In this document: positions 1 to 63,417 of the stretch, piece after piece
How positions within the stretch are numbered: position 1 is the stretch's first letter
Layout: each line of letters begins with the position of its first letter
Virus record (IMG/VR): IMGVR_UViG_3300029893_000006
Coordinates: 1-63,417 of that record
Length of the DNA stretch: 63,417 bases
DNA from: a virus
Lineage: Duplodnaviria; Caudoviricetes
Strand: one strand, 5' to 3'
Notes under the pieces: model-generated
Database searches by the model: none
What the model was told of the DNA's origin: nothing
What the model saw: the letters and a program-made list of their open reading frames with translations, nothing else
Program-made: the position numbers and the translations under genes

Positions 1-99
1 GGCACAACCAGGGTATCCGGGCTTATAGCCAACAGATTGCCCTTATCGTCCTTCCATTCCATCATGGCGTTACGGACCTTCTCAACGTTATCGGCATTG
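1..99. repeat. Terminal direct repeat (identical to 63319-63417); circular assembly overlap
   Basis: First 99 nt match the last 99 nt exactly, and the capsid reading frame runs through the junction. Confidence 0.97.
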
Positions 100-611
100 A
101 GCTTCAAGGTAGACCCAAGTGAATCAGGATCACCGTAATTGCCAAACGTTGCGCTGTTGGTAGGACTATAGGGATGTGCTGCGCTACACAATGCCTTTCC
201 ATCCGGCCCGGGATAAAGGTCATTAAAAGCATTGTTGAACACGGAAGCAGCATAGAACTGCCTGGTATAATAAACAGTCCTCACCAGGATTCTTACCCGC
301 TTCTTGATCTCGCCGTATTGATCGTCCTCGGGAAGTTCTCTCTCGATTTCAAGGCCCTTGGAATATTTCTTATGCCGATAGGTCGCCAGGAAGCCTTTGT
401 GGATGTCCTCGTAGGCTACCTGACGCCCAGATTCATCCCAAGGGGTCATAAGGCCGAGAGAGCCGATTCCTAAGTGTTGCTCTATCGCCTTGGTTGAAGT
501 TTCCACATTAAAGATTACCAAAACATAGTCTTTGAGCTTTTTCTTATGTTTATCGAAGATTCTGCGTAAGATCGGCAGCATAAGCTCCTGCCAGTTTTCA
601 GAGAGCATCAT
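1..611 (-). CDS. Major capsid protein (Mu gpT-like), exon 1, 5' part; continues across the junction into 63081-63318
   Basis: ATG at 611 after GAGGTG RBS; open frame MMLSENWQELMLPILRRIFDKH...GPDGKALCSAAHP...NAMMEWKDDKGNLL joins the 63042..63383 ORF; follows scaffold and decoration genes; not in the ORF track. Confidence 0.9.
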   Translation of the reverse strand, partial: MMLSENWQELMLPILRRIFDKHKKKLKDYVLVIFNVETSTKAIEQHLGIGSLGLMTPWDESGRQVAYEDIHKGFLATYRHKKYSKGLEIERELPEDDQYGEIKKRVRILVRTVYYTRQFYAASVFNNAFNDLYPGPDGKALCSAAHPYSPTNSATFGNYGDPDSLGSTLKLNADNVEKVRNAMMEWKDDKGNLLAISPDTLVV

Positions 612-13212: not shown

Positions 13213-13317
13213 ATGCTCCGCTTATTCCCCGGCCTTATCTCTCTTGTAGTAGCTATCATTATCATCCTGGGCTGCTACATCGTAAACGAAACGCTGAAGG
13301 AGGTACTAATCCGATGA
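13213..13317 (+). CDS. 34-aa single-pass membrane peptide
   Basis: GGAGG RBS; MLRLFPGLISLVVAIIIILGCYIVNETLKEVLIR; ATGA overlap with the next gene. Confidence 0.5.
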   Translation: MLRLFPGLISLVVAIIIILGCYIVNETLKEVLIR

Positions 13318-13700
13318 AAATTATTAGGAAAACCAAAATTGTTGAATGCAAGGACATTTCATTATACTTCGAATTTAAAAATATGCCAGGAGCCGGTTTT
13401 GCCTTCCCTTGCGATGAGCAAGGTAATGTTGACACCAAAAACCTTCCACCAGAAGCACTTGGCAATTACAAAAAATGCTTATCTGGTGAGCATGATGTAA
13501 TTTGCAAAGGTGTTCGTATACTCCGTTGGAATGTTCGTGAACCCGCCGTTGGCCTTTGCGAATGCGGAAAAGAAGTCGAACTTTCCCATTTCACGAATAC
13601 CTGCGAATGCGGAGCTGACTACAACTTTGCAGGCCAGCGTCTTGCTCCCCGGGAACAATGGGGAGAGGAAACAGGGGAGCATTGGACTGAGTGCTACTAA
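13314..13700 (+). CDS. Conserved Zn-binding phage protein
   Basis: GAGFAFPCDEQGNV...CECG...NTCECGADYN..GQRLAPREQWGEETGE. Confidence 0.75.
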   Translation: MKIIRKTKIVECKDISLYFEFKNMPGAGFAFPCDEQGNVDTKNLPPEALGNYKKCLSGEHDVICKGVRILRWNVREPAVGLCECGKEVELSHFTNTCECGADYNFAGQRLAPREQWGEETGEHWTECY

Positions 13701-13791
13701 AAAGGGCAAGGGACTGTCCCGTGAAAGCCGGGACCAGGGGGAAATTCTTTCCCCTGCTCCGCTCAACCTACGATGAAAGGAGGTCTGACCC

Positions 13792-13977
13792 GTGAACTTT
13801 GAAAACGTCAAAGGCGAACTCAAGGGCAATATTCTACACTTGGAAATCGACGTTACAAAGCGTCTCGGACCCAGTGCAAGCGGCAAAACAACTATCGTTG
13901 CCACTACAAGCGGCAATCAGCCAATCCCAGGAACTGACGTTATACTCGGTCTTAACTGCTATACTAAGCGCCGCTAA
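13792..13977 (+). CDS. Small conserved protein
   Basis: AAGGAGG RBS; IDVTKRLGPSASGKTTIVATTSGN...LGLNCY. Confidence 0.75.
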   Translation: MNFENVKGELKGNILHLEIDVTKRLGPSASGKTTIVATTSGNQPIPGTDVILGLNCYTKRR

Positions 13978-14140
13978 CTCCTGCCAGGGGGAGCCTTGCC
14001 AAAGGGCTCCCCCAAGCAAGATATTTGAAAGGAGGTTTATGGGAAAATGGCTTACCAAGCCAAATACGAAAATGGCGGCTGGAACTTATACAAGAATGGT
14101 AAGCTCGTAGGCCGCCATAAAGACGAAAGAAAGGAGGCTA

Positions 14141-19368: not shown

Positions 19369-20230
19369 CCTTATCCCTCTCTTTCATCTTGTTTTCAAGA
19401 ATAACTACCTGCTTCCGGAGCTTTGATGGTGACAGGATATTTGCTCTCCAAAAACTATCATCCATGCAAAAATCTATTATCGCTTTGATCTCGTTCCAGG
19501 TATAGCCCTTAGTTCCCCCGGGAGGTCCCAGCCTGTGAAGCCTGTCCATTTCCAGTGCCCACTTCTGCATTAGGCTGTCGTCCTCTTTATCATCAGGAAC
19601 CTTTGCCCTGGGGTTATTTCCCATGATCATACCTCTTAAATAATTCGCACCCCTATAGGCAGCACTCTCCTTCTTAAATACAGGCTCTTCTGGTGTTTTC
19701 TCACCGTCCGAACCAGGGAGTTCGGACAAGAGATCTTTAGTACTTTTCTTTTCTTTTTCTTTTCTTTTATTTACTTTACTTTCCTTTACTTTGTTATTTT
19801 CTGTTATAACTTTGTTATTTTCTGTTATAACAGTGTTATCTGATGCCGACTTTTCGGACTTTCCCCATCTTAACGCCATCCCCTTCTTGCCCGCCTTAGA
19901 TTTCTTTTCCCTTGAAGCATGAAAGGCTGCCTTACGCCTACGAAGGCTCTCACTCCAGAACTTTTCCCCGTCGCTAACAAAGAGTTGCTCTGTTATACAA
20001 GTGTTAATAACATTTTGTAACAGTGTTATATCAATGTTATAACCAGCCGCTATACCTTTAATTTTTGAATGGTAAAGGCAGGTCTCATTAGATTCAAACA
20101 TCATTTCAACCAACGCCCAATATAAACCATAACCTTCCCATCCATGTTCTGCTCTGAACATAAGTATTTTTTCATCATTTCTTGCATTGCTATCATGGCT
20201 AAAGTAATAAACATCCTTATTGTTAGCCAT
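19286..20230 (-). CDS. Replication initiator (DUF4373/Lin1244-like N-terminus)
   Basis: YYFSHDSNARNDEKI...GYGLYWALVEMM; C-terminal DSFWRANILSPSKLRKQ; upstream of the loader. Confidence 0.85.
   Translation of the reverse strand: MANNKDVYYFSHDSNARNDEKILMFRAEHGWEGYGLYWALVEMMFESNETCLYHSKIKGIAAGYNIDITLLQNVINTCITEQLFVSDGEKFWSESLRRRKAAFHASREKKSKAGKKGMALRWGKSEKSASDNTVITENNKVITENNKVKESKVNKRKEKEKKSTKDLLSELPGSDGEKTPEEPVFKKESAAYRGANYLRGMIMGNNPRAKVPDDKEDDSLMQKWALEMDRLHRLGPPGGTKGYTWNEIKAIIDFCMDDSFWRANILSPSKLRKQVVILENKMKERDKVGKAGSAPKPGYRPSEHDWSKEPKDRI
19788..20040. repeat. Probable origin iterons inside the initiator gene
   Basis: 21-bp tandem actttgttattttctgttata x2 (19788-19829), further tgtta repeats to 20040, next to a pyrimidine/AT tract. 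Confidence 0.6.
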
Positions 20231-20687
20231 TTATTACCCTCCACTCCATAAACTCTTTGACCGTCTTATCTCTTTTTTGTCGATTGCACGTTCGGCAAGA
20301 GGTAACTAAATTTTCTAGCTCATTAGTGCCATTTTTTGATAATGGAATTATATGGTCAACTTCTAAATTTCCGCCTTTTTTATTACAATAAAGGCATGTA
20401 TAATTATCTCTTTCAAAAACTATCCTTGATATTTCTTTCCACAATGGCAAGTTAAAATTATACATTCTTTTTTTAAGGAATTTGGTTAGAAACTCATTTA
20501 CTTCGTCATATATATCATGTTCATAATTAACTCTTTGTTTGGAGCACCAGTTAACAAATGATTCTTTAAACATGCCAATTTTTTTATATAATTCTTTATG
20601 ATTTTCTAAATCTTCTATAACTCCATCTTTTAAAAGAGATACATACAACCGATAAAAACCAGGATATTTATCCTGTTCTCGTGCCAT
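20223..20687 (-). CDS. HNH endonuclease
   Basis: RDNYTCLYC...VDHIIPLSKNGTNELENLVTSCRTCN. Confidence 0.92.
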   Translation of the reverse strand: MAREQDKYPGFYRLYVSLLKDGVIEDLENHKELYKKIGMFKESFVNWCSKQRVNYEHDIYDEVNEFLTKFLKKRMYNFNLPLWKEISRIVFERDNYTCLYCNKKGGNLEVDHIIPLSKNGTNELENLVTSCRTCNRQKRDKTVKEFMEWRVING

Positions 20688-20691
20688 TTAG

Positions 20692-20910
20692 TCACCCTCT
20701 CAGGAGCTTTTCCTGAATTTCTATAACTTCTACAGTTACCGGTCCGCCCGGGGCCTCTACCTGGAACTTGTCCCCCTGCTTTTTCCCAAGCAGCGCTTTT
20801 CCAACCGGCGCTTCGATGCTGATCAGATGATCCCCCGTATACTCGCTTAATCAACGGCAGAAGTTTCTGCCGTTCAGTCTATATCTAACTACCGTGCCCA
20901 ACTTGATCAT
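20692..20910 (-). pseudogene. GreA/GreB C-terminal-domain protein with an in-frame TGA
   Basis: MIKLGTVVRYRLNGRNFCR*LSEYTGDHLISIEAPVGKALLGKKQGDKFQVEAPGGPVTVEVIEI; ATGA-coupled to the upstream gene. Confidence 0.7.
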
Positions 20911-29402: not shown

Positions 29403-29801
29403 TTAAGCAAAAAGAACGGCGTTATCCAGTTTTATATGGCATGAATCGCACACTGTAGTTAAATTATCTAGATCATCTGTTCCTCCAAGTCTTACTGGTA
29501 CTAAATGGTGAATACAGAGGCGTTTTTGGTTTGTTCCGCAAATGGTGCACTGGTAATTGTCTCTTTTTAGAACTTCCTCTCGTATTTCTTCTGAGAGAGT
29601 AACATAGGGGTAAGCCCTACCCCCAAGATAGCGATGATTTCTCCTTCCCGTTGCTCTCCATATATTTGCACAACGTAAGCTGCAAAAACGTCCCCAGCCT
29701 CTCCGAACTTCTTTAGCTTCAACCATAAAGTGCTTACTGCACAATTCGCATATTCTTTTGGTGTTCTTCAAGTGTTTTCCCATAATCACCGCCCCCGCCA
29801 A
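29403..29801 (-). CDS. HNH endonuclease with N-terminal Zn finger
   Basis: CELC...FCSLRC; RDNYQCTICG...HHLVPVRLGGTDDLDNLTTVCDSCH. Confidence 0.9.
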   Translation of the reverse strand: MAGAVIMGKHLKNTKRICELCSKHFMVEAKEVRRGWGRFCSLRCANIWRATGRRNHRYLGGRAYPYVTLSEEIREEVLKRDNYQCTICGTNQKRLCIHHLVPVRLGGTDDLDNLTTVCDSCHIKLDNAVLFA

Positions 29802-62148: not shown

Positions 62149-62661
62149 TTAGATTGCTTTTAATTCCACAGTAACGGCCAAACCCGCTACTGCCGTAAGT
62201 GTCCCTGCATCCTTCAAGCACAGCCTGTCACCGGCAGCTAATTGCTTATTGGCCGTTGTGCCTGTTAAAGCAGGGCTTTGAACAGTATTTGCCGCTCCTT
62301 TTAGGTTAATCTTGGTAGCTCCAAGTACTGCCACACCAGCATCAGGGGCTTGCGTGCCTGTGAGCTTTTCAATGTCAAGCGTCACGGCACCGGCATCAGT
62401 GCCAGCCGCTGTATGTGATTCTCTAACGGACACTACTTCACAGGCAAACGGAGCTATAAAAAATACCCCGTAGTTAGCGGCAGTAGCAGCAGCATCACCA
62501 GCCAGGATAGTGCTGACAGTAAATGTTTTAGGGACCTTATGGGTTCCCTCAACGAAAACAACACCGTCTTGGTTAATTATCGTTGTTTCTTCTCCTTCGG
62601 GTCCTACAGCGAACCCGTTTTCTATAGCAGAATAACCTTTGGAATGGCTGAATCCGGACAT
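62149..62661 (-). CDS. Structural/head fibre protein
   Basis: Ala/Thr-rich beta protein directly after the MCP. Confidence 0.6.
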   Translation of the reverse strand: MSGFSHSKGYSAIENGFAVGPEGEETTIINQDGVVFVEGTHKVPKTFTVSTILAGDAAATAANYGVFFIAPFACEVVSVRESHTAAGTDAGAVTLDIEKLTGTQAPDAGVAVLGATKINLKGAANTVQSPALTGTTANKQLAAGDRLCLKDAGTLTAVAGLAVTVELKAI

Positions 62662-62736
62662 TTAAAATTCACCTTCTTTCAAAGATAAGGGGAGCTTGTC
62701 AAAGCTCCCCTTACTTAGTTGATATGTTGATATTAA

Positions 62737-62811
62737 TTAGGGGTTAATTGCCCCCCAAATGAAGGTTGGCTCGTCCCAGCCAAAGCTGAACCTATTAACA
62801 ACCTTATACCT
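62737..62811 (-). CDS. Major capsid protein exon 2
   Basis: RYKVVNRFSFGWDEPTFIWGAINP*, in frame after splicing; fits the gpT-family C-terminus. Confidence 0.88.
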   Translation of the reverse strand, partial: RYKVVNRFSFGWDEPTFIWGAINP

Positions 62812-63080
62812 CATTTGTTATGCACAGGCTCTTTATCCTATGCTCCCCGTCTTTCGTCGGGGTATCGGAGCACCTTTTCACCCTCGTCTTTACGTTAGGG
62901 TGGCGGGGACTCGTGGAGGGATTATATTCCGTTAGCGGTTTCACCCTCTGCTCTCTGCGTGTGTCAATAACGTTACTTATTGACTTCCCTTCGGGTCGGC
63001 ATAGCTCTGTGCCTTAGCTTTCCCGTTTTTTCCCCGCTGTTTTATGCTGCAAGTTTCCCTGCAACCGGGCAAGTATGTTT
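62812..63080 (-). mobile_element. ORF-less group I self-splicing intron (probably subgroup IA)
   Basis: 5' exon ends in U, intron ends in G; P1 GGGU/GCCC, P10 AUACUU/AGGUAU, P3 GCGGGGA/UCCCCGC, P7 GAGCA/UGCUC; P2, P6, P7.1, P8, P9 hairpins. Confidence 0.9.
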
Positions 63081-63417
63081 ACCCACTTCTGTATCGAAGT
63101 TCTCCCTATCCTGCTCCAGCTTGGCAACCCTGCGGTCAAACCAGTTAGCATACATTTTAGCCCTTTCCCTGTCCATCATAAACCAGGCATTAGGATTGGT
63201 CAGGAACGGCCACTCAATCACATCTAAAGCACCTTTCCAGATGTTAACGTTGTTATCGCTGGTATCCGGTTCTTTGTCTGTATCAGCAATAACCATAGCA
63301 GGTTTACGTAACTTGGGAGGCACAACCAGGGTATCCGGGCTTATAGCCAACAGATTGCCCTTATCGTCCTTCCATTCCATCATGGCGTTACGGACCTTCT
63401 CAACGTTATCGGCATTG
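63081..63417 (-). CDS. Major capsid protein exon 1, 3' part
   Basis: PDTLVVPPKL...NNVN...PFLTNPNAWF...ENFDTEVG. Confidence 0.9.
63319..63417. repeat. Terminal direct repeat (identical to 1-99)
   Basis: Exact match. Confidence 0.97.

What the first reader, a model, noticed from the sequence alone, without database searches (positions are those of the whole stretch)
62737..63090. Self-splicing group I intron interrupts the major capsid gene
Seen: the MCP frame reads ...ENFDTEVG and then runs into a short tail ending in a stop. The expected C-terminus RYKVVNRFSFGWDEPTFIWG resumes 269 nt later. Removing 62812-63080 joins GGT|AGG in frame and gives 307 aa. The insert has a U.G P1, a P10 with the 3' exon, a P2 GNRA loop, P3, P7.1, P8, P9 and a terminal G. 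P7 is GAGCA/UGCUC, a compensatory variant of the usual GACUA/UAGUC. There is no homing ORF. Knowledge: phage group I introns are mostly described in DNA-metabolism, terminase and lysin genes. Inference: capsid production depends on splicing, which could act as a guanosine/Mg/temperature gate. Unspliced RNA would give a truncated MCP ending KHTCPVAGKLAA.
Basis: partly seen in the sequence, partly recalled or inferred. Interest (0 to 1): 0.8.

Follow-up and report, generated by a model that had tools for sequence, protein, structure and literature searches.

The report
Self-splicing intron in phage capsid gene
A 269-base group I (self-splicing type) intron with no gene of its own interrupts the major capsid gene of an uncultured subsurface phage; it is well supported, but it is an ordinary new example of a known kind of mobile element.

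Summary
On the minus strand the Mu gpT-like major capsid gene is cut after ...ENFDTEVG (GGT, 63081) and resumes at 62811 (AGG, RYKVVNRF...). Removing 62812-63080 (269 nt) gives a 307-aa protein that aligns end to end with uninterrupted homologues.

The insert is a group I intron. It has the P1 U.G pair, a 6-bp P10, a terminal G, and helices P2 to P9.1. Rfam RF00028 matches over its full length but scores 30.1 bits, below the 50-bit cut-off.

The stronger evidence is a large family of phage introns that share its core. A profile built without this intron finds it at E 1.5e-19, and the family shows heavy compensatory variation in every core helix.

A DNA contig from an oil-field metagenome lacks exactly these 269 nt. 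That same run also holds an intron-containing copy, which shows a compensatory G-C to A-U change in P7.2.

No RNA data were available. P6 is weak, with 1 of 3 pairs.

Capsid-gene group I introns are already in print (LittleE, Tuc2009), so this is a new member of a known kind. The proposed "splicing gate" has no support.

The parts
63081..63417 (-). 3' part of exon 1 of the Mu gpT-like major capsid gene. It ends ...ENFDTEVG with codon GGT. U63081 is the last exon base.
   Evidence: ORF list. PF10124 E 2.2e-13 and phrog_371 E 7.5e-13.
3..611 (-). 5' part of exon 1: start codon and the first 203 codons. It is joined to 63417 through the 99-nt terminal repeat of the record.
   Evidence: PF10124 and phrog_371.
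62812..63080 (-). Group I intron, 269 nt, with no ORF, IA2-like (it has P7.1/P7.2).
   Evidence: RF00028 30.1 bits over model positions 1-253. Family model R1 121 bits (ours was in the seed). Family profile built without ours, E 1.5e-19. Exactly this stretch is absent from a metagenome contig.
63066..63085 (-). P1. Exon bases 63085-63081 and intron bases 63080-63079 pair with the internal guide 63072-63066. The splice-site pair is U63081.G63070.
   Evidence: 7/7 pairs; Rfam alignment.
63071..63076 (-). Guide bases that pair with the first six bases of exon 2 (62811-62806) to form P10.
   Evidence: 6/6 pairs.
63046..63065 (-). P2 hairpin, 8 bp, with a GAAA tetraloop.
   Evidence: Family members have GNRA-capped P2 at the same place (rows).
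63031..63037 (-). P3 5' strand, GCGGGGA. It pairs with 62909-62903.
   Evidence: 7/7. Family test: 36 of 84 sequences find a 7/7 partner for their own strand, against 3.2% for other members' strands.
62992..63025 (-). P4 (63025-63022 with 62995-62992) enclosing P5. The register of P5 is uncertain: 2/3 pairs by homology, or an alternative GGCA/UGCC with 4/4.
   Evidence: family covariation.
62959..62990 (-). P6 (only 1 of 3 pairs is standard) and the P6a hairpin (8 bp, 62984-62977 with 62970-62963).
   Evidence: In one search ours is the only one of 47 rows that is unpaired at the middle P6 pair.
62949..62953 (-). P7 5' strand, GAGCA. It pairs with UGCUC at 62872-62868. G62953-C62868 is the family-invariant G-C pair.
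   Evidence: 5/5; 49/49 rows paired at each of the five pairs; helix 98.4% paired, 3 of 5 pairs with changes on both sides.
62916..62948 (-). P7.1 (62948-62944 with 62920-62916) enclosing P7.2 (62938-62936 with 62931-62929), plus the conserved GGUGAA and GAAUAUAAUCC motifs.
   Evidence: Natural variants G62936>A together with C62931>U keep the P7.2 pair.
62903..62909 (-). P3 3' strand, UCCCCGC.
62879..62902 (-). P8, 6 + 3 bp.
62868..62872 (-). P7 3' strand, UGCUC.
62845..62862 (-). P9 hairpin with a GAAA loop.
62822..62843 (-). P9.1 hairpin, 7 bp, with the family motif GGAUAAA..GCC in and beside the loop.
62812..62821 (-). 3' tail AUAACAAAUG, ending in the terminal G (62812). The family consensus is ..AUAACA, a few more bases, then G.
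62737..62811 (-). Exon 2: RYKVVNRFSFGWDEPTFIWGAINP plus the stop codon.

Best explanation
The 269 nt at 63080..62812 (minus strand) are a group I intron of the phage IA2-like type. It has no ORF of its own and sits in the most conserved C-terminal stretch of a Mu gpT-like (HK97-fold) major capsid gene.

Inferred mechanism, the standard one for the class:
- The internal guide (63072-63066) pairs with the end of exon 1 to form P1, with U63081.G63070 at the cleavage site.
- A free guanosine bound at the G-C pair of P7 attacks after U63081.
- The guide then holds exon 2 through a 6-bp P10.
- The terminal G62812 enters the same site, and the exons are ligated to GGU|AGG.
- The spliced message encodes the full 307-aa capsid protein. 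Unspliced RNA would give a 295-aa protein that lacks the conserved last 24 residues.

The element is most simply a selfish mobile insertion. Relatives in the same family carry HNH endonuclease genes and this copy has none. It therefore most likely persists because it splices well enough, and it would move only by recombination or with a nuclease supplied in trans.

Shown here: the gene structure, the fold, the family homology and covariation, and the presence/absence polymorphism. Inferred: splicing itself and the way the element moves.
For: 1. Exact in-frame interruption.
- The spliced product is 307 aa with no stops. It aligns over 1-307 with P0001 (309 aa, 88% identity) and with six further homologues.
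- 38 of the 40 homologue C-termini printed read straight through ..EV[GAS][RKA]YK..; the other 2 are truncated proteins.
- All 23 distinct related capsid loci that reach the site are uninterrupted there.

2. Intron-less allele in DNA. In run X8 a 91-nt contig joins 62811 to 63082 with one letter in place of 63081. That removes exactly 62812-63080 and turns GGT into the synonymous GGC. A 360-nt contig of the same run holds the intron.

3. Class hallmarks in the sequence: U before the 5' splice site paired to G, terminal G, P10 6/6, the P3/P7 pseudoknot, and all of P1 to P9.1.

4. Rfam RF00028 matches over model positions 1-253, 30.1 bits, E 1e-5 in a 701-base search.

5. Family membership.
- The core motif finds more than 107 stretches in viral contigs and 17 in metagenome contigs.
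- Model R1 finds 118 matches in 100 loci.
- A sequence profile of those 118, without ours, hits 62959-62816 at E 1.5e-19.

6. Covariation in the family.
- 3' half (ours excluded): 97.3% of cells paired, 30 of 32 pairs changed on both sides, 0/500 shuffles reach this, and slid controls are at most 45.3%.
- P4, P5, P6 and P6a on a plain MAFFT alignment: 80.2% paired, against at most 44.3% when slid.
- P3: 36 of 84 sequences find a perfect partner for their own strand, against 3.2% when strands are swapped between members.

7. The intron variants in runs X8 and X10 carry G62936>A together with C62931>U, which is compensatory in P7.2.

8. Persistence. Intron-bearing DNA is seen in 10 runs of 5 studies, of which 5 runs may be the source of the record. 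The record itself is a complete genome with terminal repeats. An essential gene carried this way argues that the intron is removed.
Against: - No RNA evidence. No RNA run holds the stretch, so splicing has not been observed.
- The Rfam score (30.1) is below the gathering score (50), and the whole-window scan at gathering threshold did not list the intron.
- P6 has only 1 of 3 standard pairs. Ours is the only one of 47 aligned family rows that is unpaired at the middle P6 pair. P5 is short or of uncertain register. Activity could therefore be reduced or depend on a cofactor.
- The shorter side of the intron-less contig is 30 letters, one below the tool's own bar of 31 for counting a bridge. It was laid at 85% likeness and comes from a relative, not the same strain.
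- Alignment A2 was fitted to the model's structure, which favours pairing. R1 had ours in its seed. A model built without ours could not be made.
- Assignment to subgroup IA2 rests on P7.1/P7.2 and on recalled likeness to Twort-type introns, not on a formal classifier.
Confidence: 0.88

Rival explanations
1. It is a group I intron, but not efficiently self-splicing on its own. With its degenerate P6 it needs a host or phage protein, or particular conditions, to fold. Splicing is then conditional in practice.
For: P6 has 1/3 pairs, and ours is the only one of 47 rows with a mismatch at the otherwise 46/47-paired middle P6 pair. P5 is weak in the homologous register. The stretch is found in subsurface, rock and oil-field runs, and the intron is more G+C-rich (0.54) than most family members (0.30-0.54). 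That would fit adaptation to special conditions.
Against: All other helices are intact and strong. The 8-bp P6a may make up for the weak P6. I recall that many phage group I introns self-splice in vitro. Nothing here points to a cofactor gene.
Confidence: 0.15
2. One reading: splicing acts as a regulatory gate (guanosine, Mg or temperature) that times or limits capsid production.
For: Capsid synthesis necessarily depends on splicing. [quoted passage not shown]
Against: All 23 related capsid loci lack the intron, and an intron-less allele occurs in the same run as the intron-bearing one. The intron is therefore dispensable for the phage type. The same intron family sits in unrelated genes (terminase, tape measure, gyrase A, RNA polymerase), as expected of a selfish element and not of a capsid-specific regulator.
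Confidence: 0.07
3. A non-splicing insertion: the capsid gene is broken, either as a defective genome or as an assembly artefact.
For: No RNA evidence. The Rfam score is below threshold.
Against: The same arrangement is assembled in runs of several studies. The record is complete with terminal repeats. Exon 2 is intact, in frame, and 70-80% identical to its nearest relatives over 20-24 residues. The insert belongs to a covarying ribozyme family, and its boundaries fit the U / terminal-G rule to the base.
Confidence: 0.03
4. Another way of skipping the insert: a group II intron, an intein or translational bypassing.
For: None found.
Against: The reading frame hits a stop 12 codons into the insert, so it is not an intein. 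The Rfam scan of the region at E up to 10 gave no other intron family. At 269 nt it is far shorter than group II introns and far longer than known bypass gaps (recalled).
Confidence: 0.01

Closest known systems
Phage IA2-type group I introns (Staphylococcus phage Twort, T4 td/nrdB, Bacillus cereus-group prophage introns)
   Same: The core architecture matches, with P7.1/P7.2 between P7 and P3, a GNRA-capped P2 and P9, and a 3' tail ending ..AUAACA..G. PMC2504315 (passages) describes IA1/IA2 introns in B. cereus prophage tape-measure genes, and its table names terminase and tail-tube sites. It reports homology to introns of phages of Gram-positive and Gram-negative hosts. BLAST with a family member hits Staphylococcus, Streptococcus, Bacillus and Clostridium phages in terminase, tape-measure and gyrase genes.
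   Different: - The host gene and insertion site differ.
- P7 reads GAGCA/UGCUC; its A-U second pair was seen in no other row of A1 (48 of 48 have C-G) and in 7 of 89 rows of A2.
- P6 is degenerate.
- There is no ORF.
- The likeness to Twort and T4 themselves is recalled, not tested here.
Mycobacteriophage LittleE capsid intron and BAKA tail-gene intron (Pope et al. 2013, PMC3706429; passages read)
   Same: [quoted passage not shown] There is a U at the end of exon 1 and a G at the end of the intron. The BAKA intron is 265 bp and lacks an endonuclease gene, like ours. Splicing was confirmed there by RT-PCR and protein sequencing.
   Different: The LittleE intron is about 820 bp and carries a putative homing endonuclease gene. 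The hosts are high-GC Actinobacteria. I did not test sequence relatedness to our intron.
Lactococcus phage Tuc2009 major head protein intron
   Same: A group I intron in a major head (capsid) protein gene. It is listed in a table of PMC2504315 and cited in the introduction of PMC3706429.
   Different: Known to me only from those two mentions. The primary paper was not read, and neither the insertion site nor sequence relatedness was tested.
Same-family intron with an HNH gene in contigs L032/L060/L092/L104
   Same: The ribozyme family is the same (143.8 bits with R1), with nearly the same P8 sequence as ours. It also lies in front of a Mu gpT-like capsid reading frame, 26% identical to P0001 over residues 15-268.
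   Different: It sits near the 5' end of that capsid gene, not the 3' end. It carries a 223-aa HNH-type ORF that ends just before the P6a 3' strand. I did not locate its exon 1.

Membership tests
Group I intron | The last base of the 5' exon is U, paired to G of the internal guide sequence in P1. | tested here: met
   U63081.G63070 within a 7-pair P1. The Rfam alignment gives the same P1.
Group I intron | The last base of the intron is G (omega G). | tested here: met
   G62812. Shifting the boundary by one base gives the same mRNA but breaks both rules.
Group I intron | Conserved core: a P4-P6 stack and a P3-P8 stack joined by the P3/P7 pseudoknot. | tested here: met
   Ours: P3 7/7, P4 4/4, P6a 8/8, P7 5/5, P8 9/9, but P6 only 1/3 and P5 2/3. 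Family covariation.
Group I intron | Guanosine-binding G-C pair in P7. | tested here: inconclusive
   The first P7 pair is G-C in ours (G62953-C62868) and in 87 of 89 distinct family rows. That this pair is the binding site is recalled from Tetrahymena work. Binding itself cannot be tested here.
Group I intron | P10 between the guide sequence and the 3' exon. | tested here: met
   6/6 pairs, 62811-62806 with 63071-63076.
Group I intron | Reaches the curated score of Rfam RF00028. | tested here: not met
   30.1 bits against a gathering score of 50, and not listed at gathering threshold. The model is blind to this family: no RF00028 hit in 17 member loci.
Group I intron | Guanosine-initiated self-splicing of the RNA. 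| not testable with these tools
   No RNA run holds the stretch. This needs an in vitro or RT-PCR assay.
Subgroup IA2-like phage introns | Extra helices P7.1 and P7.2 between P7 and the 3' strand of P3 (criterion recalled from the Michel-Westhof scheme). | tested here: met
   P7.1 5/5 and P7.2 3/3 in ours. In the family they are 99.1% and 96.8% paired, and every pair changes on both sides.
Mobile (homing) group I intron | Homing endonuclease gene inside the intron. | tested here: not met
   No ORF over 65 aa overlaps the 269 nt. Two free-standing HNH genes lie elsewhere in the genome, with no link to the intron shown.
Mobile (homing) group I intron | Intron-plus and intron-minus alleles of the same site in related genomes. 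| tested here: met
   Contigs with and without the 269 nt occur in run X8 (the short side is 30 letters, one under the tool's bar). All 23 related loci are intron-less.

The most novel reading that the evidence does not exclude
This copy may be a condition-dependent ribozyme. Its P6 is reduced to one standard pair, while its P3, P7 and P9 are more G+C-rich than in most relatives. It may fold only under the conditions of its subsurface or oil-field host, or only with a protein partner. Capsid protein supply, and so the burst, would then really be gated by splicing. That would be a natural example of a selfish intron co-opted as a late-gene switch.
Probability: 0.07. Interest if true: 0.6.

Novelty: new member of a known kind. 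Interest (0 to 1): 0.3.

Why it matters
For annotation: gene callers will report a truncated 295-aa capsid protein plus an orphan 25-codon ORF. The true product is 307 aa.

For surveys: the intron belongs to a large family, with more than 107 stretches in IMG/VR at a single 17-base motif. Rfam's group I model did not detect that family in 17 member loci, so counts of phage introns based on Rfam are likely too low. The small model and alignments made here could seed a better one.

For biology: it adds a well-documented presence/absence case of an ORF-less intron in an essential late gene of an uncultured subsurface phage. Introns in capsid genes are already known, so it does not open a new question.

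Tried and rejected
- RNA evidence: no RNA holder was listed for 62500-63417. The one RNA run of a related study laid 0 contigs. This says nothing either way.
- Rfam on relatives: no RF00028 hit in L009 and L010 (E up to 0.01), in 10 member loci (E up to 0.01), in 5 short member loci (E up to 1), or in a 701-base stretch of L066 (E up to 10). Rfam therefore could not be used to class the family.
I used a sequence-only profile of A2 instead.
- A first, stricter motif search in viral contigs gave 3 stretches, of which L011 is a chance match inside coding sequence. L011 and L118 were left out of later sets.
- Other copies in this genome: R1 finds none. The next best match is 12.3 bits, E about 1, at 20650-20723 beside an HNH gene. 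I judged it noise.
- Pfam HNH_3 and GIY-YIG: no match in the genome.
- The simple 'best complementary 7-mer' search for P3 picked wrong sites in many rows. It was replaced by the own-versus-swapped test.
- PMC6669764, PMC3888941 and PMC8541194 (passages) mention phage introns only in DNA-metabolism or terminase genes. They add nothing on capsid genes.
- Supplementary files of papers were not opened. The tables of intron sites in PMC2504315 may hold more on capsid-gene introns.

Full report
**What is there.** The window is a complete virus record of 63,417 bases whose first and last 99 bases are the same. The ends of the window fall inside one gene on the minus strand. Codons 1-203 lie at 611..3, and the gene continues from 63416 downwards. 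Both pieces match Mu-like major head subunit gpT (PF10124, E 6.3e-11 and 2.2e-13) and PHROG 371 'major head protein'. The frame reads ...LEQDRENFDTEVG and then KHTCPVAGKLAA and a stop. After 269 further bases a short frame reads RYKVVNRFSFGWDEPTFIWGAINP and a stop.

**Is the gene really split?**
- A search with the first 203 residues gave 176 homologues at E up to 0.001 among 256 candidates, most of them 296-311 aa. The nearest is 91% identical over the query.
- Of the 40 C-termini I printed, 38 run straight through ..EV[G/A/S][R/K/A]YKVVNRFSFGWD... The other two are truncated proteins of 235 and 244 aa.
- I joined the exons by computation across the terminal repeat and removed 62812-63080. 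This gives 307 aa without a stop, aligning over 1-307 with P0001 (88%) and end to end with six other homologues. The unspliced product is 295 aa.
- I examined 27 related capsid loci from viral and genome contigs, which come from 24 distinct contigs. One ends before the site. The other 23 are uninterrupted at the junction, and none holds an intron of the family at E up to 1e-3.

**An intron-less allele in DNA.**
- Contigs of four public runs were laid on 62500-63417 at 85% likeness.
- Run X8 (oil-field metagenome, DNA) holds a 360-nt contig covering 62771-63111 with the intron and 5 differences.
- The same run holds a 91-nt contig that passes from 62811 directly to 63082, with one letter in place of 63081. 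Exactly the 269 nt are missing, and GGT has become the synonymous GGC.
- The U that the ribozyme needs before the splice site is therefore a C in the empty allele.
- Caveat: the shorter side of that contig is 30 letters, one below the tool's bar for a bridge, and it belongs to a relative.
- The intron-bearing contigs of X8 and X10 differ from the window at four intron positions. On the RNA strand, G62936>A and C62931>U are the two sides of one pair of P7.2, so the change is compensatory. The other two lie in loops.

**The fold of this copy.** All helices were checked base by base.

| Helix | Standard pairs | Note |
|---|---|---|
| P1 | 7/7 | U63081.G63070 at the splice site |
| P10 | 6/6 | with the first six bases of exon 2 |
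| P2 | 8/8 | GAAA loop |
| P3 | 7/7 | |
| P4 | 4/4 | |
| P5 | 2/3 | homologous register; an alternative gives 4/4 |
| P6 | 1/3 | |
| P6a | 8/8 | |
| P7 | 5/5 | GAGCA/UGCUC |
| P7.1 | 5/5 | |
| P7.2 | 3/3 | |
| P8 | 9/9 | |
| P9 | 6/7 | GAAA loop |
| P9.1 | 7/7 | |

The terminal base is G62812. An unconstrained fold gives -89.3 kcal/mol, z = -5.2, and recovers most of these helices. Rfam's group I model matches over its whole length but scores only 30.1 bits against a cut-off of 50. E is 1e-5 in a 701-base search, and the match is not listed in the whole-window scan at gathering threshold.

**A large family of relatives.**
- BLAST of the intron against phage records gave weak hits in unannotated gaps of jumbo phages. 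One lies between two RNA polymerase beta pieces of Aeromonas phage ZPAH34. Another lies between g328 and the gyrase A gene of Yersinia phage phiR1-37. The pairwise alignment already showed compensatory changes in P7, P7.1, P8, P9 and P9.1.
- From 61 non-redundant stretches I aligned 48 with ours, leaving out 13 that have long insertions (A1). I wrote the structure from the helices above and built model R1.
- In the window R1 finds only our intron. The next match is 12.3 bits.
- In 100 loci R1 finds 118 matches at E up to 1e-5. L110-L135 were left out because of the cap on sources, and L011 because it is a chance match.

**Tests of the family structure and of membership.**
- On the 118 matches (89 distinct rows, ours not among them), 97.3% of cells form standard pairs and 30 of 32 pairs change on both sides. 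No shuffle of 500 reaches any measure, and sliding the partners drops pairing to 29.5-45.3%. This alignment was fitted to the model, which favours the structure.
- A sequence-only profile of the same 118 rows hits 62959-62816 (minus strand) at E 1.5e-19. Membership therefore does not rest on our own sequence having been in the seed.
- P3 crosses P7 and cannot be put in such a model, so I tested it separately. In 84 distinct sequences, the 3' strand finds a perfect 7-base partner 50-135 nt upstream of the core in 36 cases. For strands swapped between members the figure is 3.2% of 5,238 comparisons.
- For the 5' half I used a plain MAFFT alignment of ours with 46 of 52 candidate rows. The six dropped rows were among those with the longest spacing; one row of equal spacing (L063) was kept. 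Rows had been chosen by P3 complementarity, so P3 was not tested on this alignment. P4, P5, P6 and P6a are 80.2% paired against 28.0-44.3% when slid, and 0 of 500 shuffles reach the covariation score.
- 13 of the 47 rows, ours among them, show GGT followed by A and then A or T at the expected 5' splice site.

**A weak point.** At the middle pair of P6, 46 of 47 rows are paired. The one exception is ours, with G opposite A. The contigs from X8 and X10 show no difference from the window there. The intron may therefore be a slower ribozyme or need help. This is the main reason, together with the lack of RNA data, that I do not go above 0.88.

**How it most likely works and moves.** Splicing by the standard two-step guanosine-initiated pathway is inferred from the anatomy. 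It is also inferred from the persistence of an essential gene in this state in a complete genome that is seen in runs of several studies. The intron has no ORF. Family members in contigs L032, L060, L092 and L104 carry a 223-aa HNH-type ORF ending just before the P6a 3' strand, so ours looks like an ORF-less derivative. The genome has two free-standing HNH genes at 20223-20687 and 29403-29801. Nothing links them to the intron. Nothing supports a regulatory role: relatives and a co-occurring allele do without the intron, and the family sits in many unrelated genes.

**Comparison with what is known.**
- Pope et al. 2013 (PMC3706429, passages) showed splicing of an intron in the capsid gene of mycobacteriophage LittleE, and of a 265-bp endonuclease-less intron in a tail gene of BAKA. 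They cite a capsid-gene intron in lactococcal phage Tuc2009.
- Tourasse and Kolsto 2008 (PMC2504315, passages) describe IA1/IA2 introns in tape-measure genes of B. cereus-group prophages. Their table names terminase and tail-tube sites and lists the Tuc2009 major head protein intron among the relatives.
- The finding is therefore a new member of a known kind.
- What is slightly unusual: the P7 variant (its A-U second pair is absent from the other 48 rows of A1, and seen in 7 of 89 rows of A2), the degenerate P6, the subsurface setting, and the fact that Rfam's model detects this copy weakly but missed 17 member loci.

**Verdict.** The group I intron reading is supported at about 0.88. The 'gate' idea is unsupported, at about 0.07. 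Novelty: new member of a known kind. Interest 0.3.

Noticed in passing
window 13699-13775 (+): Twister-sister ribozyme (RF02681) at 42.4 bits, above its gathering score of 34, E 4.9e-06 over the full model. It starts at the last bases of a + strand ORF (13314-13700) and ends before the next one (13799-14110).
   Followed up: partly
L009, L010, L012, L013, L015, L019, L021, L022, L026, L030, L032, L033, L036, L057, L059, L066 and others: Rfam's group I model RF00028 gave no hit in 17 loci that hold clear members of this intron family (75-147 bits with R1). This held even for a 701-base stretch searched at E up to 10. A family with more than 100 members in IMG/VR appears to be invisible to the standard scan.
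   Followed up: partly
L092 9799-10640 (also L032, L060, L104): An intron of the same family carries a 223-aa HNH-type ORF. It ends about 20 bases before a reading frame that is 26% identical to the gpT-like capsid protein from residue 15 on. This looks like a second, independent capsid-gene intron near the 5' end of that gene. Exon 1 was not located.
   Followed up: partly
L009 2404-2807 (Aeromonas phage ZPAH34) and L010 2372-2678 (Yersinia phage phiR1-37): Unannotated gaps hold family members (108 and 98.3 bits with R1). One gap lies between two RNA polymerase beta pieces; the other lies before the gyrase A gene. These genes are probably split by unannotated group I introns.
   Followed up: partly
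L031 (5 matches), L086 (3), L074, L062, L043, L080, L038, L046, L081, L093, L040, L039, L084, L090 (2 each): Several viral contigs hold two to five copies of the intron family within a few kilobases. Some phages therefore carry many introns of this type.
   Followed up: no
window 20223-20687 (-) and 29403-29801 (-): Two free-standing HNH endonuclease genes, 154 and 132 aa (PF01844, 57.6 and 40.1 bits), lie among early or replication-type genes. No link to the intron was found.
   Followed up: partly
window 62682-62720 (-): A strong hairpin (9-bp G+C-rich stem, GGGGAGCUU...AAGCUCCCC) followed by a U-rich stretch lies about 20 bases after the capsid stop codon. It is probably a terminator or a processing site. 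It shows up only as chance-level microRNA matches, and the simple terminator scan did not list it.
   Followed up: no
window 1-99 and 63319-63417: The 99-base terminal repeat of the record lies inside the capsid gene. The gene is therefore cut by the window ends, and gene callers will see two fragments.
   Followed up: yes
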